This document shows positions 6,466-16,182 of a stretch of 64,000 nucleotides of DNA, one piece after another. The notes below the pieces were generated by a model, which saw nothing but the letters and a program-made list of their open reading frames with translations, was not told the DNA's origin and ran no database searches. The position numbers and the translations under genes were made by a program. Within the stretch, counting starts at the first letter, position 1. Each line of letters opens with the position of its first letter. Where the stretch lies: the NCBI RefSeq assembly GCF_003334385.1, contig NZ_QOWN01000017.1. One strand, written 5' to 3'. Source of the stretch: Escherichia coli. Lineage in GTDB: Bacteria; Pseudomonadota; Gammaproteobacteria; Enterobacterales; Enterobacteriaceae.

Positions 6466-8157
6466 ATGAAAACGCTGCTGATTATTGACGCTAATCTCGG
6501 TCAGGCACGCGCCTATATGGCGAAGACCCTGCTGGGCGCGGCGGCGCGAAAAGCAAAACTGGAAATCATCGACAATCCGAACGACGCTGAAATGGCGATT
6601 GTTCTCGGTGATTCCATCCCGAACGACAGCGCGCTGAACGGTAAAAATGTCTGGCTGGGCGATATTTCCCGGGCAGTTGCGCACCCTGAGCTGTTCCTGA
6701 GTGAAGCCAAAGGCCATGCGAAACCTTACACTGCGCCGGTCGCTGCGACAGCACCAGTTGCCGCCAGCGGTCCGAAACGCGTAGTTGCGGTGACTGCTTG
6801 CCCGACTGGCGTAGCACACACCTTTATGGCGGCTGAAGCCATTGAAACCGAAGCGAAAAAACGTGGCTGGTGGGTGAAAGTTGAAACCCGTGGTTCTGTT
6901 GGCGCGGGTAATGCAATCACTCCCGAAGAAGTCGCAGCAGCGGATCTGGTGATTGTGGCGGCAGATATCGAAGTGGATCTGGCGAAATTTGCTGGTAAAC
7001 CGATGTATCGTACCTCTACCGGTCTGGCGCTGAAGAAAACCGCGCAGGAACTGGATAAAGCGGTTGCTGAAGCAACGCCGTATGAACCGGCGGGCAAAGC
7101 TCAAACGGCGACCACTGAAAGTAAGAAAGAGAGTGCAGGCGCATACCGTCACTTGCTGACGGGCGTTTCTTACATGCTGCCGATGGTCGTTGCAGGTGGT
7201 CTGTGTATCGCGCTTTCTTTTGCTTTTGGTATCGAAGCGTTTAAAGAGCCGGGTACGTTGGCTGCGGCGCTGATGCAGATTGGTGGTGGTTCAGCCTTTG
7301 CGCTGATGGTGCCGGTACTGGCAGGTTATATTGCCTTTTCCATTGCCGATCGTCCGGGCCTCACTCCGGGTCTGATTGGCGGTATGCTGGCGGTCAGCAC
7401 CGGTTCTGGCTTCATTGGTGGTATTATTGCGGGCTTCCTGGCTGGTTACATTGCGAAGTTAATCAGTACGCAATTGAAACTGCCACAGAGTATGGAGGCG
7501 CTGAAACCGATCCTGATCATTCCGCTAATTTCCAGTCTGGTGGTCGGTCTGGCGATGATCTACCTGATCGGTAAACCAGTTGCTGGCATTCTCGAAGGGC
7601 TGACTCACTGGCTGCAGACCATGGGGACTGCGAATGCGGTTCTGCTGGGGGCGATCCTCGGTGGCATGATGTGTACTGACATGGGCGGTCCGGTAAACAA
7701 AGCAGCGTACGCATTCGGTGTGGGTCTGCTGAGTACTCAAACCTATGGCCCGATGGCGGCGATTATGGCGGCAGGTATGGTGCCACCGCTGGCAATGGGT
7801 CTGGCAACAATGGTGGCGCGTCGCAAATTCGACAAAGCGCAGCAGGAAGGTGGCAAAGCCGCTCTGGTATTGGGACTGTGCTTCATTTCGGAAGGTGCAA
7901 TTCCGTTTGCTGCTCGTGATCCGATGCGTGTGCTGCCGTGCTGTATCGTGGGTGGGGCGCTGACTGGCGCAATCTCAATGGCGATTGGTGCGAAACTGAT
8001 GGCACCGCACGGTGGTCTGTTTGTTCTGCTGATCCCTGGCGCTATTACGCCGGTATTGGGTTACCTGGTAGCAATTATTGCCGGTACGCTGGTGGCGGGT
8101 TTGGCCTATGCCTTCCTGAAACGTCCGGAAGTGGACGCAGTAGCGAAAGCAGCGTAA
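6466..8157 (+). CDS. fruA: PTS fructose-specific EIIB'BC component
   Basis: 563-aa ORF, duplicated IIB domains plus polytopic IIC. Confidence 0.95.
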   Translation: MKTLLIIDANLGQARAYMAKTLLGAAARKAKLEIIDNPNDAEMAIVLGDSIPNDSALNGKNVWLGDISRAVAHPELFLSEAKGHAKPYTAPVAATAPVAASGPKRVVAVTACPTGVAHTFMAAEAIETEAKKRGWWVKVETRGSVGAGNAITPEEVAAADLVIVAADIEVDLAKFAGKPMYRTSTGLALKKTAQELDKAVAEATPYEPAGKAQTATTESKKESAGAYRHLLTGVSYMLPMVVAGGLCIALSFAFGIEAFKEPGTLAAALMQIGGGSAFALMVPVLAGYIAFSIADRPGLTPGLIGGMLAVSTGSGFIGGIIAGFLAGYIAKLISTQLKLPQSMEALKPILIIPLISSLVVGLAMIYLIGKPVAGILEGLTHWLQTMGTANAVLLGAILGGMMCTDMGGPVNKAAYAFGVGLLSTQTYGPMAAIMAAGMVPPLAMGLATMVARRKFDKAQQEGGKAALVLGLCFISEGAIPFAARDPMRVLPCCIVGGALTGAISMAIGAKLMAPHGGLFVLLIPGAITPVLGYLVAIIAGTLVAGLAYAFLKRPEVDAVAKAA

Positions 8158-8314
8158 TAAAAGGTGTGTTACAGGGCAGAAATTTCCTGTCCTGTAACAT
8201 TTGATGAGCGCAAAGAGAATGACCGGTTTGTGAATGTAATTTTATGAATTTAAATGGTTTTATCTTTCAGTAGAAACTTCAAACGTTCATCAAACACTCA
8301 GGTTATTTCCTCAA

Positions 8315-8341
8315 GGGCAGATTATTTTCTGCCCTTTTTTA
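8315..8341 (+). terminator. Rho-independent terminator downstream of fruA
   Basis: GGGCAGA-loop-TCTGCCC followed by TTTTTT; an imperfect 13-bp inverted repeat at 8167..8199 precedes it. Confidence 0.6.
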
Positions 8342-8579
8342 TTGTTCTGTTCTGTGCATCCCGTCACAAATTCCTCGCTTTTGTAATTCAGGCATTTAAT
8401 CGCATTTTGTGAGCCTGCTCAAATCTGCCCATTTTGCCTCTCTGGCGGTAATTTACTTTACGTAAAACATGCATACTATGAGCACATGTTTAAATATGAA
8501 CACATGTTTAAACCGTCTTTGCAGTATCTATATTCTTGTGGATTGACAGGGTTGGTAATTTTTTACCAGAGGACGTGCT

Positions 8580-9521
8580 ATGCGCGAAAAGGATTATGTC
8601 GTAATTATAGGTTCGGCGAATATTGATGTCGCCGGATATTCACATGAATCATTAAATTATGCGGATTCAAATCCAGGTAAAATAAAATTTACGCCTGGTG
8701 GAGTAGGGCGCAATATTGCACAAAACCTGGCGTTGCTGGGTAACAAAGCCTGGCTACTGAGCGCCGTAGGCAGTGATTTTTATGGTCAATCGCTGCTAAC
8801 GCAAACCAATCAATCTGGCGTTTATGTCGATAAATGCCTGATTGTGCCGGGAGAAAATACGTCGAGTTATTTATCATTACTCGATAATACCGGTGAAATG
8901 CTGGTTGCTATAAATGACATGAATATTAGCAACGCTATTACAGCTGAATATCTCGCACAGCACGGTGAATTTATTCAGAGGGCAAAGGTCATTGTCGCGG
9001 ACTGTAATATCAGTGAAGAGGCACTGGCATGGATTCTGGATAATGCCGCCAACGTACCCGTATTTGTCGATCCGGTTTCGGCATGGAAATGTGTCAAAGT
9101 GCGCGACCGTCTAAATCAGATCCACACTCTCAAGCCAAACCGCCTTGAAGCGGAAACCCTGAGTGGGATTGCGCTGTCAGGGCGTGAAGATGTGGCAAAA
9201 GTTGCTGCCTGGTTCCATCAACATGGCCTGAACCGACTGGTATTGAGCATGGGCGGCGACGGCGTTTATTACAGCGATATCAGCGGTGAAAGTGGCTGGT
9301 CTGCGCCGATCAAAACCAATGTTATTAATGTTACCGGAGCGGGCGATGCCATGATGGCGGGACTTGCTTCGTGTTGGGTAGACGGAATGCCGTTTGCCGA
9401 ATCTGTTCGTTTCGCACAGGGATGTTCGTCAATGGCGCTCTCCTGTGAATACACCAATAACCCCGATTTATCGATTGCCAACGTTATATCGTTAGTGGAG
9501 AACGCAGAATGTCTGAATTAA
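8580..9521 (+). CDS. psuK: Pseudouridine kinase (PfkB family)
   Basis: 313-aa ORF; PfkB motifs (GGVGRN, TGAGDAM). Confidence 0.9.
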   Translation: MREKDYVVIIGSANIDVAGYSHESLNYADSNPGKIKFTPGGVGRNIAQNLALLGNKAWLLSAVGSDFYGQSLLTQTNQSGVYVDKCLIVPGENTSSYLSLLDNTGEMLVAINDMNISNAITAEYLAQHGEFIQRAKVIVADCNISEEALAWILDNAANVPVFVDPVSAWKCVKVRDRLNQIHTLKPNRLEAETLSGIALSGREDVAKVAAWFHQHGLNRLVLSMGGDGVYYSDISGESGWSAPIKTNVINVTGAGDAMMAGLASCWVDGMPFAESVRFAQGCSSMALSCEYTNNPDLSIANVISLVENAECLN

Positions 9522-10453
9522 AAATTTCCCCTGAATTATTACAAATTTCCCCGGAAGTGCAGGACGCTTTAAAAAACAAAAAACCGGTTGTGGCGCTGGA
9601 ATCGACCATTATTTCTCACGGGATGCCGTTCCCACAAAATGCCCAGACCGCAATTGAAGTTGAAGAAACTATTCGTAAACAGGGCGCTGTACCTGCCACG
9701 ATCGCCATTATTGGCGGCGTGATGAAAGTGGGGTTAAGCAAAGAAGAAATTGAATTACTGGGTCGTGAAGGGCATAACGTGACCAAAGTTAGTCGTCGCG
9801 ATTTACCTTTTGTTGTTGCCGCCGGAAAAAATGGCGCAACCACTGTGGCTTCAACGATGATTATTGCGGCGCTTGCCGGAATTAAAGTATTTGCCACCGG
9901 GGGAATTGGTGGTGTGCATCGCGGGGCGGAACATACCTTCGATATTTCTGCCGATTTGCAAGAACTGGCAAATACTAATGTCACCGTTGTTTGTGCCGGG
10001 GCGAAATCTATTCTCGATTTAGGATTAACCACTGAGTATTTAGAAACCTTCGGTGTGCCGTTAATTGGCTATCAGACTAAAGCGCTGCCTGCGTTTTTCT
10101 GCCGCACCAGCCCGTTTGACGTCAGCATTCGTCTCGACAGCGCCAGCGAAATTGCCCGTGCAATGGCGGTGAAATGGCAAAGCGGTCTGAACGGTGGCCT
10201 CGTGGTAGCGAACCCGATCCCGGAACAGTTTGCTATGCCGGAACACACTATCAATGCGGCGATCGATCAGGCGGTAGCTGAAGCTGAAGCTGAAGCTCAG
10301 GGAGTCATTGGTAAAGAAAGTACGCCATTCCTGCTGGCGCGCGTTGCTGAACTGACCGGCGGTGACAGCCTGAAATCCAACATCCAGCTGGTGTTCAACA
10401 ACGCCATTCTGGCGAGCGAAATTGCCAAAGAATATCAGCGTCTCGCGGGTTAA
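9509..10453 (+). CDS. psuG: Pseudouridine-5'-phosphate glycosidase
   Basis: 314-aa ORF; overlaps psuK by 13 nt; contains (GCTGAA)3 repeat encoding AEAEAEAQ. Confidence 0.9.
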   Translation: MSELKISPELLQISPEVQDALKNKKPVVALESTIISHGMPFPQNAQTAIEVEETIRKQGAVPATIAIIGGVMKVGLSKEEIELLGREGHNVTKVSRRDLPFVVAAGKNGATTVASTMIIAALAGIKVFATGGIGGVHRGAEHTFDISADLQELANTNVTVVCAGAKSILDLGLTTEYLETFGVPLIGYQTKALPAFFCRTSPFDVSIRLDSASEIARAMAVKWQSGLNGGLVVANPIPEQFAMPEHTINAAIDQAVAEAEAEAQGVIGKESTPFLLARVAELTGGDSLKSNIQLVFNNAILASEIAKEYQRLAG

Positions 10454-10546
10454 TTTCTGACGGGCAGAAAGCCGTCGCCCGTACTCATCAAGCATACCAA
10501 AACCTGGCGCTGACGCCGGGTTTACCGGCATGAAGGGAAAATCATT

Positions 10547-11797
10547 ATGGATATAATGAGAAGTGTTGTGGGGATGGTGGTGTTACTGGCAATAGCATTT
10601 CTGTTGTCAGTGAATAAAAAGAGCATCAGTTTGCGCACGGTTGGAGCCGCACTGCTGCTGCAAATCGCTATTGGTGGCATCATGCTCTACTTCCCACCGG
10701 GAAAATGGGCAGTAGAACAGGCGGCATTAGGCGTTCATAAAGTGATGTCTTACAGTGATGCCGGTAGCGCCTTCATTTTTGGTTCGCTGGTTGGGCCGAA
10801 AATGGATGTCCTGTTTGACGGTGCGGGTTTTATCTTCGCCTTTCGCGTACTTCCGGCGATTATTTTCGTTACTGCGCTCATCAGTCTGCTGTACTACATT
10901 GGCGTGATGGGGCTGCTGATTCGCATCCTTGGCAGCATTTTCCAGAAAGCCCTCAACATCAGCAAAATCGAATCTTTTGTTGCGGTTACTACTATTTTCC
11001 TCGGGCAAAATGAGATCCCGGCGATCGTTAAACCGTTTATCGATCGCATGAATCGCAACGAGTTGTTTACCGCAATTTGTCGCGGGATGGCGTCCATTGC
11101 TGGTTCGATGATGATTGGTTATGCCGGAATGGGCGTACCAATTGACTACCTGTTAGCGGCATCGCTGATGGCGATCCCTGGCGGGATTTTGTTTGCACGT
11201 ATTTTTAGCCCGGCAACCGAGCCTTCGCAGGTCACATTTGAAAATCTGTCGTTCAGCGAAACGCCGCCAAAAAGCTTTATCGAAGCGGCGGCGAGCGGTG
11301 CGATGACCGGGCTAAAAATCGCCGCTGGTGTGGCGACGGTGGTAATGGCGTTTGTCGCAATTATTGCGCTGATCAACGGCATTATCGGCGGAATTGGCGG
11401 CTGGTTTGGTTTCGCCAATGCCTCTCTGGAAAGTATTTTTGGCTATGTGCTGGCACCGCTGGCGTGGATCATGGGTGTGGACTGGAGTGATGCCAATCTT
11501 GCGGGTAGCCTGATTGGGCAGAAACTGGCGATTAACGAATTCGTCGCTTACCTGAGTTTCTCCCCATACCTGCAAACGGGCGGCACGCTGGAAGTGAAAA
11601 CCATTGCGATTATCTCCTTTGCGCTTTGTGGTTTTGCTAACTTTGGTTCTATCGGTGTTGTCGTTGGCGCATTTTCGGCTATTTCGCCAAAACGCGCGCC
11701 GGAAATCGCCCAGCTTGGTTTACGGGCGCTGGCAGCAGCAACGCTTTCCAACCTGATGAGTGCGACTATTGCCGGGTTCTTTATTGGTCTGGCGTAA
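10547..11797 (+). CDS. psuT: Concentrative nucleoside transporter (CNT family), putative pseudouridine transporter
   Basis: 416-aa polytopic ORF; paralogue of nupX in the same window. Confidence 0.9.
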   Translation: MDIMRSVVGMVVLLAIAFLLSVNKKSISLRTVGAALLLQIAIGGIMLYFPPGKWAVEQAALGVHKVMSYSDAGSAFIFGSLVGPKMDVLFDGAGFIFAFRVLPAIIFVTALISLLYYIGVMGLLIRILGSIFQKALNISKIESFVAVTTIFLGQNEIPAIVKPFIDRMNRNELFTAICRGMASIAGSMMIGYAGMGVPIDYLLAASLMAIPGGILFARIFSPATEPSQVTFENLSFSETPPKSFIEAAASGAMTGLKIAAGVATVVMAFVAIIALINGIIGGIGGWFGFANASLESIFGYVLAPLAWIMGVDWSDANLAGSLIGQKLAINEFVAYLSFSPYLQTGGTLEVKTIAIISFALCGFANFGSIGVVVGAFSAISPKRAPEIAQLGLRALAAATLSNLMSATIAGFFIGLA

Positions 11798-11806
11798 TGC
11801 TCGATT

Positions 11807-11846
11807 TGTAGACCGGATAAAACGTATTAAGCGTTGCATCCGGCAA
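11807..11846. repeat. REP-like palindromic element
   Basis: tgtagaccggataaaacg...gcgttgcatccggca dyad between convergent psuT and yeiL. Confidence 0.6.
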
Positions 11847-11867
11847 TCGCGCTATTGAAAATAATTT

Positions 11868-12527
11868 TTACTGCATCATCCCGGAGAATTTATTCTCCGG
11901 GTCCATCTCCAGCGCCAGTCCTGACAACTGCTTTCTGTTTTTAATGAGATACCCTTTCTTGCTTTTAATTAATAAACCGTCGTGAATGAACTGCGCGAGA
12001 ACATATAAAAGATGTCGATAAGAAACGCCTAAATACTCTGCCGCTTGCGTATGCTTTTCGTGATAAAGATCACCTTCCTGCGAGAGTAATATAAATGCTG
12101 CCAGGCGATTCACTAACGGAAATGATTGATTCTGAGTTAAAGAAACAATATTACGATAATTTTTATGACTTAAGGTGACGCAGAGTTTTCGTAAAAATAG
12201 CGTGTCGTTTAATAACAGCGGACGGTAATGTTTCATAGGGAGCGCAAGGCACCAACACTCTTCAATAGCCTGCACCGCACGCGGTTCATGGTCTTTATCG
12301 ATTAACTCAATCTCGCCAATAAAACAGGGGGCGGCAAAGAAATCGATCAGCGACACGCGACCATTAGCTAGCGTGGCGTAAAGCCTGGCGCGGCCTCGCG
12401 TCAGGTAAAACAGCCAGGACGGCTGTTGCCCTTCCTGCACAATGTAGTCACGCGCTAAAAAATGAAACAGCCGCGTATCGGCTGAAACATCCGTTAAAAA
12501 GCAATCCTTAAACGCGGATTCACTCAT
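11868..12527 (-). CDS. yeiL: CRP/FNR-family regulator YeiL (219 aa)
   Basis: Track ORF 11868..12566; start trimmed to ATG (MSESAFKDC...); cNMP-binding fold plus C-terminal HTH. Confidence 0.85.
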
Positions 12528-12695
12528 CAATTGCTGCTTAAGATCATTATTGTGGATTTCTTTCACGATGTTTATCCGCTATGAGATTTCTCATATTTAG
12601 CATACGTACGCTGTTGTTAAGATTCAATCATCGGCCCGGTCGAATTTTCTTTGCTGTAGAAAAAATAACGCAACTGGAAACAGAGGAAATAAACA

Positions 12696-13637
12696 ATGGA
12701 AAAGAGAAAAATTATTCTGGATTGTGAGCCGGGTCATGATGATGCTATTGCTATAATGATGGCGGCGAAACATCCGGCAATAGATTTATTAGGCATCACT
12801 ATTGTAGCGGGTAATCAGACGCTTGATAAAACATTAATTAATGGCCTGAATGTTTGCCAGAAACTGGAGATTAATGTTCCGGTTTATGCGGGGATGCCGC
12901 AGCCCATTATGCGTCAACAAATCGTTGCCGATAATATTCACGGTGAAACCGGACTGGATGGCCCGGTATTCGAGCCGCTGACCCGCCAGGCAGAAAGCAC
13001 TCATGCGGTGAAATATATCATTGATACCCTGATGGCAAGCGATGGCGATATCACTCTGGTGCCGGTTGGTCCGCTTTCAAATATCGCGGTGGCAATGCGT
13101 ATGCAACCCGCGATCCTGCCCAAAATCCGTGAAATTGTGCTAATGGGCGGCGCTTACGGTACAGGCAACTTCACGCCATCTGCCGAGTTCAACATCTTTG
13201 CCGACCCGGAAGCCGCACGCGTAGTGTTCACCTCCGGCGTTCCATTAGTGATGATGGGCCTCGATCTCACCAACCAGACCGTTTGCACCCCGGACGTGAT
13301 TGCTCGGATGGAAAGGGCAGGCGGCCCCGCCGGAGAGCTGTTCAGCGACATCATGAACTTCACTCTCAAAACGCAGTTCGAAAACTACGGCCTTGCTGGC
13401 GGCCCGGTGCACGACGCCACCTGCATCGGTTATCTGATTAACCCTGATGGCATTAAAACCCAGGAGATGTACGTCGAAGTGGACGTCAACAGTGGCCCTT
13501 GCTATGGGCGTACCGTCTGCGACGAGCTGGGCGTTCTTGGCAAGCCCGCCAATACCAAAGTCGGCATCACTATTGATACAGACTGGTTCTGGGGATTAGT
13601 CGAAGAGTGCGTGCGCGGCTACATCAAAACCCATTAA
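12696..13637 (+). CDS. rihB: Pyrimidine-specific ribonucleoside hydrolase RihB
   Basis: 313-aa ORF; IU-nucleoside hydrolase N-terminal DCEPGHDDA motif. Confidence 0.93.
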
Positions 13638-13736
13638 GTGTTGATAACAAGCCGGGCCGGTATCGCAAGATGCAGGCCTGGCTATTTCTGATGGGCAGAA
13701 AGCCGTCGCCCAATATGACATGAAGAGATAATCACT

Positions 13737-14987
13737 ATGGATGTCATGAGAAGTGTTCTGGGAATGGTGGTATTGCTGACGATTGCGTTTTTACTGTCAG
13801 TAAACAAGAAGAAGATCAGCCTGCGTACCGTTGGCGCGGCGTTAGTGTTACAGGTCGTGATTGGCGGCATTATGCTTTGGTTACCGCTAGGGCGTTGGGT
13901 CGCTGAAAAAGTCGCTTTTGGCGTGCATAAAGTGATGGCGTACAGCGACGCGGGTAGCGCATTTATCTTCGGTTCTCTGGTCGGACCGAAAATGGATACC
14001 TTATTTGATGGTGCAGGATTTATCTTTGGTTTCAGGGTGTTACCGGCAATTATCTTCGTCACCGCGCTGGTGAGTATTCTCTACTACATCGGTGTGATGG
14101 GGATTTTAATTCGAATTCTCGGCGGTATCTTCCAGAAAGCATTAAATATCAGCAAGATCGAGTCATTCGTCGCGGTCACCACCATTTTCCTCGGGCAAAA
14201 CGAAATTCCGGCAATCGTCAAACCCTTTATCGATCGTCTGAATCGCAATGAATTATTTACAGCGATTTGTAGTGGCATGGCCTCGATTGCTGGTTCGACA
14301 ATGATTGGTTACGCCGCACTGGGCGTGCCTGTGGAATATCTGCTGGCGGCATCATTAATGGCGATCCCTGGCGGGATCTTGTTTGCCCGCCTGTTAAGCC
14401 CGGCAACGGAATCTTCGCAGGTTTCCTTTAATAACCTCTCTTTCACCGAAACACCGCCAAAAAGCATTATTGAAGCCGCTGCGACAGGGGCAATGACCGG
14501 GCTGAAAATCGCCGCAGGTGTGGCAACAGTGGTGATGGCATTTGTTGCAATAATTGCGTTGATTAACGGTATTATCGGCGGCGTTGGTGGCTGGTTTGGT
14601 TTTGAACATGCCTCGCTGGAGTCCATTTTAGGTTACCTGCTGGCTCCACTGGCGTGGGTGATGGGTGTGGACTGGAGTGATGCGAATCTTGCCGGGAGTT
14701 TGATTGGACAGAAACTGGCAATAAATGAATTTGTCGCTTATCTCAATTTCTCACCCTATCTGCAAACGGCTGGCACTCTCGATGCTAAAACTGTGGCGAT
14801 TATTTCCTTCGCGTTGTGCGGTTTCGCTAACTTTGGTTCTATCGGGGTGGTGGTGGGGGCGTTTTCTGCGGTTGCGCCACACCGTGCGCCGGAAATCGCC
14901 CAGCTTGGTTTACGGGCGCTGGCGGCGGCGACGCTTTCCAACTTGATGAGTGCGACCATTGCCGGGTTCTTTATTGGTTTAGCTTGA
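13737..14987 (+). CDS. nupX: Nucleoside permease NupX (CNT family)
   Basis: 416-aa ORF, paralogous to psuT over its full length. Confidence 0.93.
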   Translation: MDVMRSVLGMVVLLTIAFLLSVNKKKISLRTVGAALVLQVVIGGIMLWLPLGRWVAEKVAFGVHKVMAYSDAGSAFIFGSLVGPKMDTLFDGAGFIFGFRVLPAIIFVTALVSILYYIGVMGILIRILGGIFQKALNISKIESFVAVTTIFLGQNEIPAIVKPFIDRLNRNELFTAICSGMASIAGSTMIGYAALGVPVEYLLAASLMAIPGGILFARLLSPATESSQVSFNNLSFTETPPKSIIEAAATGAMTGLKIAAGVATVVMAFVAIIALINGIIGGVGGWFGFEHASLESILGYLLAPLAWVMGVDWSDANLAGSLIGQKLAINEFVAYLNFSPYLQTAGTLDAKTVAIISFALCGFANFGSIGVVVGAFSAVAPHRAPEIAQLGLRALAAATLSNLMSATIAGFFIGLA

Positions 14988-14991
14988 GTGT

Positions 14992-15088
14992 CATTGCCTG
15001 ATGCGCAAGCTTATCAGGCCTACATTTACTTGCTGAAATTGCCTGATTTGTAGGCCGGATAAGACGCGTTAAGCGTCGCATCCGGCAA
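14992..15088. repeat. BIME (two REP units)
   Basis: gcctgatgcgcaagcttatcaggcctaca and tgtaggccggataagacgcgttaagcgtcgcatccggca between convergent nupX and yeiI. Confidence 0.8.
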
Positions 15089-15093
15089 CATTG

Positions 15094-16182
15094 TTACACC
15101 ATTGGCACTAATGAAAGCGCGTTATCGGCAGACAGGGTAGGGTTGTTTAAGCTGCCGCTGGCGCGCGAAATTGCCGCGCAGGCTACCGCAAAACGGGCGC
15201 TGTCGCGGAAACTGTATCCTTCAAGAAAGCTATATACCAGGCCCGCCATAAAACCATCGTCAGCACCAAAACTGTCTACTGTCGTATGCGCTGGCGCGGT
15301 CAGCAAAAATTGTTCTCCATCCTTTTCGCTGCAATAAACTGACTCATCGGGCAAATAAACAAACAGTTGCTGAACACCTTGCTGATGCAATGCATTCACT
15401 GCGGTATTACGGTCAGCATCGCTGGTGATCGCCTGTCCCCATAAAATTTCCAGCTCCGGTAAAGTGGGTTTCAGGGTGTGAATATGCGCCAGCCAGTGTT
15501 TGATTTTGCCCGCTTTGAATTCTGAAACGGTATCGACAAACACCGGGATTTCATCAGCGAGGGTAAAGACCCATTCCAGCGCCTCGGCTGTCAGGTTGCA
15601 ATCAGCCAGTACCACGCCCGCATGACGAAGTAAATCGCGCGACCCGTTCAGTAGTTGCGGTGTCAACTGTTCCAGCAGATGGGTATCGTTAATCGCCAGC
15701 ACGGTTTGATCGTCTCGATTGGCAATTGCCAGATACGTCGATGTGCTTTGACCATGCAAACGAACGCAGCCGGAGACATTCACGCCGGCACGGCGCGTTT
15801 CTTCCAGGAGCATTTCGCCATAAAAGTCATCGCCAATCACTGAAAGCAAATGGACGTCACGGCCTAACAGCGCCAGATTGTGGGCGATGTTGCGTCCCAC
15901 GCCGCCCGCTGAGCAATGAATTGTACCGGGATGAGAAGCCGATTGCGGGTAACGGATATCCGCCATCCCGCGAATATCCATATTGATTGTCCCCACCACT
16001 ACGCAGTATTCCTGCTCGGTGAGAATGTAACCTTTGCCTTTAATCCGGCCTTTGCGCATTAAATCCATAATATGCGCCGCAACGCGCGAACGGCTGATTT
16101 GCAGCATGTCCGCAATTTCGTTCTGCTGAATCAGCGGGTTACGCCGTAAAATTGCAAGGATCTCCTTTTCCCGGTTATTCAT
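15094..16182 (-). CDS. yeiI: YeiI, N-terminal HTH fused to PfkB-family kinase
   Basis: 362-aa ORF; kinase domain paralogous to psuK. Confidence 0.9.
   Translation of the reverse strand: MNNREKEILAILRRNPLIQQNEIADMLQISRSRVAAHIMDLMRKGRIKGKGYILTEQEYCVVVGTINMDIRGMADIRYPQSASHPGTIHCSAGGVGRNIAHNLALLGRDVHLLSVIGDDFYGEMLLEETRRAGVNVSGCVRLHGQSTSTYLAIANRDDQTVLAINDTHLLEQLTPQLLNGSRDLLRHAGVVLADCNLTAEALEWVFTLADEIPVFVDTVSEFKAGKIKHWLAHIHTLKPTLPELEILWGQAITSDADRNTAVNALHQQGVQQLFVYLPDESVYCSEKDGEQFLLTAPAHTTVDSFGADDGFMAGLVYSFLEGYSFRDSARFAVACAAISRASGSLNNPTLSADNALSLVPMV

What the first reader, a model, noticed from the sequence alone, without database searches (positions are those of the whole stretch)
10454..10480. 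Near-identical 27-nt hairpin motif in the leaders of both paralogous nucleoside transporter genes (second copy 13685..13711)
tttctgaCgggcagaaagccgtcgccc precedes psuT and tttctgaTgggcagaaagccgtcgccc precedes nupX: 26 of 27 identical, whereas the adjacent coding sequences are only about 75% identical. The motif can fold as GA(C/U)GG-8 nt loop-CCGUC, with the single difference keeping pairing as a G-U wobble. Conservation above the coding background suggests a functional cis-element in the two transporter leaders.
Basis: seen in the sequence. Interest (0 to 1): 0.45.

Follow-up and report, generated by a model that had tools for sequence, protein, structure and literature searches.

The report
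Conserved hairpin before nucleoside transporter genes

Summary
The two 27-mers (10454-10480 and 13685-13711) differ at one base, and E. coli genomes carry a median of two copies. The window is the E. coli psuK-psuG-psuT / yeiL / rihB-nupX region, and each copy lies inside an operon, just upstream of the transporter cistron.

In 24 leader sequences from at least nine genera of Enterobacteriaceae (plus metagenome contigs), the conserved unit is shorter and shifted: NNGGGC-[A G W N W G C N G U C]-GCCCNN (psuT 10460-10482; nupX 13692-13712). It has a 5-6 bp stem and an 11-nt loop conserved in sequence.

The TTTCTGA flank is not conserved.

The near-identity in E. coli has two causes: selection on about 15 bases, and apparent short-tract gene conversion from psuT to nupX at the free positions (11/12 identical, against 3/12 in Kluyvera).

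No Rfam family matches. The function is inferred only: most likely an mRNA recognition hairpin that tunes the transporter cistron. It is a modest new cis-element candidate.

The parts
10460..10482 (+). Hairpin 1, psuT copy: 5' arm ACGGGC (10460-10465), 11-nt loop AGAAAGCCGUC (10466-10476), 3' arm GCCCGU (10477-10482). It starts 7 nt after the psuG stop codon (10451-10453).
   Evidence: RNAalifold consensus; pair counts; covariance model hit of 45.2 bits; -10.1 kcal/mol for the 6-bp stem.
13692..13712 (+). Hairpin 1, nupX copy: 5' arm UGGGC (13692-13696), identical loop AGAAAGCCGUC (13697-13707), 3' arm GCCCA (13708-13712). The U-A closing pair replaces the C-G pair of psuT.
   Evidence: 39.9 bits; -7.3 kcal/mol.
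13684..13711 (+). Probable short gene-conversion tract, psuT-type sequence copied into the nupX leader: ATTTCTGAUGGGCAGAAAGCCGUCGCCC, matching 10453-10480.
   Evidence: At the 12 columns that are free across genera, E. coli nupX matches Escherichia psuT at 10-11/12 but other nupX leaders at only 3-7/12. The two Kluyvera copies match at 3/12. The nupX Shine-Dalgarno region remains nupX-type.
10500..10523 (+). Hairpin 2, psuT leader only: AAACCUGGC-gcugac-GCCGGGUUU. It is terminator-like, with an A-tract and a short U-tract, and belongs to the ancestral leader architecture.
   Evidence: RNAalifold on 10 full leaders: a 9-bp stem, nearly invariant, with no covariation. Absent from E. coli nupX (41-nt indel). 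Not called by the simple terminator scan because it has only 3 U.
10533..10549 (+). psuT Shine-Dalgarno AAGGGA (10533-10538) and start codon (10547-10549), 64 nt downstream of hairpin 1.
   Evidence: Sequence; conserved CATTATGGA box.
13723..13739 (+). nupX Shine-Dalgarno AAGAGA (13723-13728) and start codon (13737-13739), 24 nt downstream of hairpin 1.
   Evidence: Sequence.
9509..10453 (+). psuG (pseudouridine-5'-phosphate glycosidase), the cistron upstream of the psuT copy.
   Evidence: ORF list; RefSeq annotation of identical E. coli loci.
10547..11797 (+). psuT, a NupC/CNT-family nucleoside transporter.
12696..13637 (+). rihB (pyrimidine ribonucleoside hydrolase), the cistron upstream of the nupX copy.
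13737..14987 (+). nupX, a paralogous NupC/CNT-family transporter (87.5% amino-acid and 78.7% nucleotide identity to psuT).

Best explanation
The element is a small RNA stem-loop at the 5' edge of the leader of PsuT/NupX-type nucleoside-transporter cistrons. It has a 5-6 bp G+C-rich stem (NNGGGC/GCCCNN) closing an 11-nt loop whose sequence is conserved: A G W N W G C N G U C, possibly with an extra G-C pair and a bulged A. Shown: it is under purifying selection, it folds on the sense (mRNA) strand, and it travels with the transporter gene whatever the upstream cistron is. Inferred: because the loop letters are conserved and asymmetric, and its distance to the start codon varies from about 24 to about 67 nt, it probably does not mask the ribosome-binding site. 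More likely it is a recognition site for a trans-acting factor, a protein or a ribonuclease more probably than an sRNA. That factor would set how much transporter mRNA is made or survives relative to the upstream enzyme cistrons. In the ancestral leader it would act together with the terminator-like hairpin 2 some 17-20 nt downstream, as an intra-operon attenuation or read-through control. It also keeps a function where hairpin 2 has been deleted. The 26/27 identity in E. coli has two causes: selection on about 15 of the 27 bases, and a short psuT-to-nupX gene conversion that homogenised the unconstrained bases.
For: Conservation: 10 invariant and 3 nearly invariant columns within 19 nt, flanked by columns of 0.2-0.6 bits, while fourfold sites of the adjacent paralogous CDS are 47.6% identical. 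Structure: RNAalifold predicts the stem without guidance. With 24 sequences, 94% of cells pair and 0 of 500 shuffles reach the observed pairing, double-change cells or covariation score. Slid controls give 31-53% paired. Pair 13/31 is G-C in 21 and A-U in 3 sequences, with none unpaired. Pair 12/32 is C-G 15, U-A 4, U-G 4, other 1. Pair 11/33 is A-U 10, G-C 3, G-U 3. The variant states fall in separate clades of the transporter tree, implying several independent events. Strand: 7 G-U against 2 A-C in the stem. Energy: -5.6 to -12.1 kcal/mol in every sequence. Linkage: the covariance model hits one copy upstream of each close PsuT/NupX-type gene at 32 bits or more and nothing else above 19 bits in 684 kb. 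In the metagenome scan, 13 of 20 pattern hits sit directly upstream of such a transporter. The element is retained in five or more lineages that lost hairpin 2. Gene conversion.
Against: No experiment or dataset shows any effect on expression. No trans factor is identified. The stem is short and its four central pairs never vary, so covariation rests on three outer pairs and on related sequences; the tool warns that shuffle counts are not probabilities. In Entomohabitans psuT the element is replaced by an unrelated 13-bp hairpin. That hints that any hairpin might do, or that the element is dispensable when a paralog exists. Hfq-CLASH hybrids for psuT and nupX lie in the coding sequences, not at the hairpin. 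Hairpin 2 shows no covariation and has a weak U-tract, so its terminator role is an assumption. The element is confined to a narrow group (transporters at least about 83% identical) and is absent in Serratia/Hafnia.
Confidence: 0.5

Rival explanations
1. Generic structural hairpin. The stem-loop only provides a physical barrier or end-protecting structure, stabilising the 3' end of the upstream psuKG/rihB message or the 5' end of a processed transporter message. No sequence-specific partner is involved.
For: It lies between cistrons. In Entomohabitans psuT an unrelated, longer hairpin occupies the same position. Homology between the two E. coli loci starts at about the hairpin's 5' edge.
Against: Seven of the 11 loop positions carry at least 1.5 bits and two more are restricted to A/U; loops of purely structural hairpins drift freely. 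A stem of 5-6 bp is weak for an exonuclease block.
Confidence: 0.18
2. DNA operator. The inverted repeat GGGC-N11-GCCC is the binding site of a transcription factor, for example the neighbouring CRP/FNR-type YeiL or the HTH-PfkB protein YeiI. It would control an internal promoter or act as a roadblock.
For: Inverted repeat with conserved sequence. Regulator genes lie next to many of the loci. An RpoS-holoenzyme SELEX peak is reported inside psuG, so an internal promoter is conceivable.
Against: The conserved loop letters are not dyad-symmetric. Arm positions change in a complementarity-preserving way, with G-U intermediates on the sense strand, 7 against 2. No promoter-like site is predicted in either leader. 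The element is present in genomes whose locus lacks yeiL (E. albertii, Citrobacter, Enterobacter, K. michiganensis) or lacks yeiI (Buttiauxella, K. spallanzanii).
Confidence: 0.12
3. Minimal ligand-sensing riboswitch or attenuator. Hairpin 1 plus its A-rich tail would bind a nucleoside, such as pseudouridine or uridine, and control termination at hairpin 2.
For: The ancestral layout is a conserved hairpin, then an A-rich spacer (AUAUCA..CAUACCAAAA), then a terminator-like hairpin, then the SD. Both operons deal with pyrimidine nucleosides. A 5-bp stem with an 11-nt loop superficially resembles preQ1-I aptamers (my own knowledge).
Against: No consistent loop-to-tail or loop-to-flank pairing across species. 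Hairpin 1 persists where hairpin 2 and the tail are deleted, including E. coli nupX. It sits before the last cistron rather than at the operon's 5' end. No Rfam match. It is very small for an aptamer.
Confidence: 0.08
4. One reading: GA(C/U)GG, an 8-nt loop, then CCGUC, with the C/U difference tolerated as a G-U wobble.
For: It is the MFE of the isolated 27-mers (-8.6 and -6.8 kcal/mol). Within-E. coli variants (GAC, GGC, GGU) keep it through wobbles.
Against: 67% of cells paired, no compensatory change, below all 500 shuffles. Pairs 10/27 and 13/24 are broken in 13 and 14 of 20 sequences. Its energy is about zero or positive in most genera. The z-scores of the 27-mers are unremarkable at -1.35 and -0.85.
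Confidence: 0.04
5. No function: the identity is only the footprint of a recent gene conversion or duplication between the two E. coli leaders.
For: The E. coli copies are identical at 11 of 12 positions that are free across genera, unlike Kluyvera at 3/12. Some CDS windows also reach at least 26/27.
Against: The 19-nt core is conserved in at least nine genera, including genomes with only one of the two operons, where conversion is impossible. Compensatory changes are present.
Confidence: 0.05

Closest known systems
Intercistronic mRNA stem-loops that set differential expression within operons (for example the malE-malF REP hairpins, the pap and puf operon hairpins, and internal partial terminators). 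This comparison is from general knowledge.
   Same: It lies between cistrons of one operon, upstream of a membrane-protein gene that is usually needed at a lower level than the enzymes. In the ancestral leader it is accompanied by a terminator-like hairpin.
   Different: Its loop sequence is conserved. There are only two copies per genome, so it is not a REP/BIME repeat. The stem is short.
Protein-recognised antitermination hairpins (lambda nut boxB, BglG/LicT RAT, ANTAR targets). This comparison is from general knowledge.
   Same: A short stem with a sequence-specific loop placed upstream of a terminator-like hairpin. The variable distance to the gene start is compatible with action on transcription rather than on the ribosome-binding site.
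   Different: The loop is 11 nt, not a GNRA-like pentaloop or a hexaloop pair. There is no boxA-like partner and no overlap with the terminator arm. No cognate protein is known in the locus.
Small pseudoknot riboswitches such as preQ1-I (Rfam RF00522).
   Same: About a 5-bp stem, an 11-nt loop and an A-rich 3' tail, located before a transporter gene.
   Different: No conserved loop-tail pairing, no Rfam hit, the tail is dispensable in several lineages, and the element is not at the 5' end of the operon.
Short-tract gene conversion between paralogs (concerted evolution).
   Same: The paralogous leaders within E. coli are more alike at unconstrained sites than either is to its orthologs.
   Different: The tract is only about 28-30 nt, bounded by non-homology on the 5' side and an indel on the 3' side. 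It does not extend into the CDS, where third positions of the first 90 nt are 53% identical.

Membership tests
Any curated Rfam 15 family | Covariance-model match at or near the gathering score | tested here: not met
   Window 8000-16000 at E<=10 gave nothing on the hairpins except a chance-level isrJ hit of 18.9 bits against a gathering score of 37. Seven orthologous or related loci at E<=1 gave nothing in the leaders.
REP/BIME or other dispersed intergenic repeat | Many copies per genome in unrelated intergenic regions | tested here: not met
   Median of 2 places per E. coli genome, both at psuT/nupX. Only 2 copies in the 64-kb window.
Intrinsic terminator | G+C-rich stem followed directly by a U-tract | tested here: not met
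   Hairpin 1 is followed by GUACUC in psuT and AAUAUG in nupX. It is not called by the scan. Hairpin 2 has only 3-4 U.
Conserved structured RNA element | Base pairs maintained by compensatory changes across species, better than slid or shuffled controls | tested here: met
   94% paired against 31-53% for slid controls. 0 of 500 shuffles reach the observed pairing or covariation. Three pairs have double changes. Independent RNAalifold prediction.
Conserved structured RNA element | Strand specificity (G-U tolerated on the transcribed sense strand) | tested here: met
   7 G-U against 2 A-C cells in the stem.
Palindromic transcription-factor operator | Dyad symmetry of the conserved bases | tested here: not met
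   Only the GGGC/GCCC arms are symmetric. The conserved loop letters A17 G18 G22 C23 G25 T26 C27 have no mirror partners.
Palindromic transcription-factor operator | Position at or near a promoter | tested here: inconclusive
   No sigma-70-like site is predicted in either leader. A SELEX RpoS-holoenzyme peak inside psuG is reported, but at low resolution and in an unclear coordinate system.
Riboswitch | Conserved aptamer with tertiary or pseudoknot pairing, plus an expression platform that alternates with it | tested here: not met
   No consistent partner for the loop in the leader, the upstream 78 nt or the first 90 nt of the CDS. Hairpin 2 has been lost repeatedly while hairpin 1 stays.
Riboswitch | Direct ligand binding | not testable with these tools
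   Needs in-line probing or ITC.
Hfq-dependent sRNA target site | sRNA-mRNA hybrids mapping to the element | tested here: inconclusive
   Hfq-CLASH supplements list CpxQ-psuT, CpxQ-nupX and CyaR-nupX hybrids, all inside the CDS and none at the hairpin. A nitrogen-starvation RIL-seq set has no entry. These operons are poorly expressed in laboratory conditions, so absence is weak evidence.
Gene-conversion tract between paralogs | Within-genome paralog identity exceeds ortholog identity at unconstrained sites, and is not seen in other genomes carrying both copies | tested here: met
   E. coli 11/12. E. coli nupX against Escherichia psuT 10-11/12, and against other nupX 3-7/12. Kluyvera paralogs 3/12. 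P about 1e-4.

The most novel reading that the evidence does not exclude
The hairpin is the docking site of a dedicated, still unidentified sensor that couples nucleoside availability to transporter synthesis. The sensor could be a nucleoside-responsive RNA-binding protein acting as an antiterminator, or the RNA itself acting as an unusually small nucleoside aptamer. This would define a new riboregulatory class specific to CNT-type transporters of Enterobacteriaceae.
Probability: 0.1. Interest if true: 0.7.

Novelty: new member of a known kind. Interest (0 to 1): 0.36.

Why it matters
Regulation of psuKGT (pseudouridine catabolism) and rihB-nupX is essentially uncharacterised, and the substrates of PsuT are still unproven (PMC11241209). 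A conserved leader hairpin specific to the transporter cistron gives a concrete handle: a 21-23 nt element for mutagenesis, pull-downs and ligand tests. That could show how these poorly expressed operons are switched on. The case also shows why paralog identity alone can mislead. Part of the signal is gene conversion, and the fold that looks best in one genome is not the conserved one.

Tried and rejected
2. Alternative palindrome TTTCTG-N5-CAGAAA, seen in both E. coli copies: 51% paired and no better than slid controls, and its arm is not conserved.
3. Pseudoknot or long-range pairing of the loop with the tail, the SD/start region, the first 90 nt of the CDS or the upstream 78 nt: best duplexes fall at inconsistent positions.
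4. Coding potential: the frame GGG CAG NNN GCN GTC GCC looked codon-like, but NNN is TAA or TGA in several genera (sequences), so it is not coding.
5. Sigma-54 and sigma-70 promoter readings: the spacing does not fit, and the scan finds nothing in the leaders.
6. Known operators or RNA motifs recalled from memory (PurR box, PyrR loop, ops/JUMPstart, boxB, SECIS): each resembles only one or two species' versions and not the consensus. These are not tests.
7. Co-evolution of both copies with a shared partner as the cause of the E. coli identity: rejected, because the two Kluyvera copies differ at 4 of 11 loop positions.
8. Wider distribution: the covariance model found nothing in Serratia/Hafnia or in about 70 distant NupC-family loci.
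9. Literature: searches on psuT/nupX/yei names and two interactome supplements gave nothing on this element. One search failed on syntax.
10. Whole-genome search for further copies (a regulon) could not be done. Only BLAST on E. coli genomes was possible, and that would miss diverged copies.

Full report
**What is in the window.** The region is E. coli. The genes are psuK (8580-9521), psuG (9509-10453), psuT (10547-11797), yeiL (11868-12566, minus strand), rihB (12696-13637), nupX (13737-14987), then yeiI and nfo on the minus strand. Each lies inside an operon. One is 0 nt after the psuG stop codon and 66 nt before the psuT start. The other is 47 nt after the rihB stop and 25 nt before the nupX start.

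**Is it more than chance?**
- The motif occurs twice in the window, against 0 expected, and at a median of two places per genome in 5,425 E. coli genomes.
The CDSs are 78.7% identical, and 36 windows of 27 nt inside them also reach at least 26/27.
- The right yardstick is unconstrained sites. Fourfold-degenerate positions are 47.6% identical, which gives P about 6e-8 for 26/27.
- Homology between the loci starts at about the motif's 5' edge, one base upstream of the 27-mer. It is interrupted by a 41-nt indel after the motif and resumes at the Shine-Dalgarno region.

**Comparative data.** I collected leaders by four routes that did not presuppose the fold:
- A protein-based scan of one genome per species gave Leclercia, three Citrobacter, E. 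albertii, Enterobacter and Superficieibacter.
- Exact-protein look-ups gave Buttiauxella, K. michiganensis, Kluyvera, K. spallanzanii, Entomohabitans and another Enterobacter.
- A degenerate metagenome pattern that left the stem flanks free gave 20 hits. Thirteen lie directly upstream of a PsuT/NupX-type gene and seven are chance matches.
- Three E. coli strain variants were fetched.

Gene order differs among genomes. Many have only psuK-psuG-psuT-yeiI-nfo, including E. albertii. Some have only yeiL-rihB-nupX. E. coli, Kluyvera and Entomohabitans have both. The element accompanies the transporter in either context.

**What is conserved.** Only E. albertii and one Citrobacter match the full 27-mer within six substitutions.
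- The conserved unit is GGGCAG-NNN-GC-N-GTCGCC(C/T). Ten columns are invariant and three nearly invariant.
- Information content is 1.5-2 bits at A17, G18, G22, C23, G25, U26, C27 and the stem (alignment columns; column n corresponds to window position 10449+n).

**Which fold?** I counted three candidate structures on 20 distinct sequences.

| Structure | Cells paired | Compensatory changes | Controls |
|---|---|---|---|
| TTTCTG/CAGAAA | 51% | three pairs change on both sides | same as slid controls |
| Shifted stem, cols 12-16 with 28-32 | 99 of 100 | yes | better than slid controls |

- RNAalifold finds the shifted stem unaided, both on the 43-nt segments and on full leaders.
- With 24 sequences and the 6-bp stem plus an inner G18-C27 pair, 94% of cells pair and 0 of 500 shuffles reach the observed pairing, double-change count or covariation score. 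Slid controls give 31-53%.
- Pair 13/31 is G-C in 21 sequences and A-U in 3. Pair 12/32 is C-G 15, U-A 4, U-G 4, with one mismatch. Pair 11/33 is A-U 10, G-C 3, G-U 3.
- On a tree of the transporter proteins these variant states lie in separate clades, so several independent events are implied.
- G-U outnumbers A-C by 7 to 2, which favours the sense-strand RNA.
- The stem is favourable in every sequence, at -5.6 to -12.1 kcal/mol.

**Distribution.** A covariance model of the hairpin recovers one copy upstream of each close PsuT/NupX-type gene at 32 bits or more. Nothing else exceeds 19 bits in 684 kb, which includes the Serratia/Hafnia loci (73% identity) and about 70 distant NupC-family loci. 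No Rfam family matches.

**Why are the E. coli copies so alike?** Selection explains only about 15 of the 27 bases. At the 12 columns that are free across genera:
- the E. coli copies agree at 11;
- the two Kluyvera copies agree at 3;
- all other psuT-by-nupX comparisons average 4.3, giving P about 1e-4 for 11 or more of 12;
- E. coli nupX matches Escherichia psuT at 10-11 but other nupX leaders at only 3-7.

The nupX Shine-Dalgarno region is still nupX-type, and the start of the CDS shows no excess identity. The best reading is a conversion tract of roughly 28-30 nt from psuT into nupX in the Escherichia lineage. This also excludes the idea that both copies track a shared partner at the variable positions.

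**Leader architecture.** The ancestral leader is: hairpin 1, then an A-rich spacer (AUAUCA..CAUACCAAAA), then hairpin 2 (AAACCUGGC-loop-GCCGGGUUU; window 10500-10523), then CUGGCAUGAAGGGA (the SD), then CAUUAUGGA (the start).
- Hairpin 2 is nearly invariant and so uninformative for covariation. It has only 3-4 U and is not called by the simple terminator scan.
- Hairpin 2 has been deleted, apparently between CCTGGC direct repeats, in E. coli nupX, Buttiauxella, Kluyvera nupX, Superficieibacter and Entomohabitans nupX. Hairpin 1 is kept in all of these.
- In Entomohabitans psuT, hairpin 1 itself is replaced by an unrelated 13-bp hairpin.

**Mechanism.**
- *Shown:* a selected, sense-strand RNA hairpin with a sequence-specific, asymmetric loop, linked to the transporter cistron.
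- *Inferred:* the distance to the start codon varies about threefold, and no consistent cis partner for the loop exists. Direct occlusion of the ribosome-binding site and a pseudoknot switch are therefore unlikely.
- *DNA operator disfavoured:* the loop asymmetry and the complementarity-preserving arm changes argue against one. No promoter is predicted. Neither yeiL nor yeiI is always adjacent.
- *Remaining reading:* recognition by a trans factor that sets read-through, processing or stability of the transporter message. Ancestrally it would act with hairpin 2 as an intra-operon attenuator. I put about 0.75 on 'selected RNA hairpin' and about 0.3-0.35 on this specific mode of action.
- *Published data:* Hfq-CLASH hybrids for psuT and nupX (with CpxQ and CyaR) map to the coding sequences, not to the hairpin. 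A SELEX RpoS-holoenzyme peak inside psuG leaves open an internal promoter, which would place the hairpin near a 5' end. I could not resolve that paper's coordinate system.

**Verdict.** The proposed fold and motif boundaries are wrong, and part of the striking identity is gene conversion. The element is an undescribed, narrowly distributed leader hairpin of unknown function: a new member of a familiar kind and of moderate interest.

Noticed in passing
window 10500-10523: A second, nearly invariant hairpin in the psuT leader: AAACCUGGC-gcugac-GCCGGGUUU. It is terminator-like, with an A-tract and a short U-tract, and sits between hairpin 1 and the SD. It is conserved in Escherichia, Citrobacter, Enterobacter, Kluyvera, Leclercia and Klebsiella but was deleted from several nupX leaders, apparently between CCTGGC direct repeats.
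   Followed up: partly
L111 about 7150-7260 (Entomohabitans psuT leader, minus strand of the locus): Hairpin 1 is replaced by an unrelated 13-bp hairpin, GCGCTGTTCCCGG-ACGGATTA-CCGGGAAACAGCGC. The downstream AATATCAGGCATAC tail is kept.
   Followed up: partly
L006, L007, L009, L010 about 2850-2960: Serratia/Hafnia-type homologues (73% identity) lack the element. Instead they carry another conserved long hairpin, CCTGAAAGG...CCTTTCAGG, upstream of the transporter. It has no Rfam match.
   Followed up: partly
L114 6885-6950 and L115 2000-2850 (E. coli strains FDAARGOS_1293 and 13C1065T): Natural gene loss. In FDAARGOS_1293, nupX is reduced to a 66-nt remnant, and its leader hairpin carries extra substitutions. 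In 13C1065T, an IS1 replaces psuG, psuT, yeiL and the 5' part of rihB.
   Followed up: partly
window 10541-10558: The psuT start codon lies inside the palindrome TCATTAT-GGAT-ATAATGA. The CATTATGGA box is almost universal among the orthologues, so a weak start-codon hairpin may be conserved.
   Followed up: no
window 10566-10616 (psuT CDS) and within the nupX CDS: Published Hfq-CLASH hybrids link CpxQ (from the cpxP 3' UTR) to psuT and nupX, and CyaR to nupX, at G-rich coding segments (PMC7213987 supplements).
   Followed up: no
within psuG, window 9509-10453 (exact position uncertain): Genomic SELEX lists an RpoS-holoenzyme binding peak inside psuG (PMC5493296, position 2255672 in that paper's coordinates). 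It is a possible internal promoter for psuT.
   Followed up: partly
window 11811-11898 and 15053-15100: Sub-threshold Rfam naRNA4 matches on both strands just downstream of psuT and of nupX. They are probably REP-type palindromic repeats at the 3' ends of both transporter genes.
   Followed up: no
window 13650-13684: An extra imperfect hairpin, AGCCGGGCC...GGCCTGGCT, lies between the rihB stop codon and the nupX hairpin. The psuT leader has no counterpart.
   Followed up: no
window 15094-16182 (minus strand): yeiI encodes a PfkB-type kinase paralogous to PsuK (about 39% identity) with an N-terminal HTH domain. It is convergent with the transporter in most loci and is a candidate regulator of the region.
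   Followed up: no
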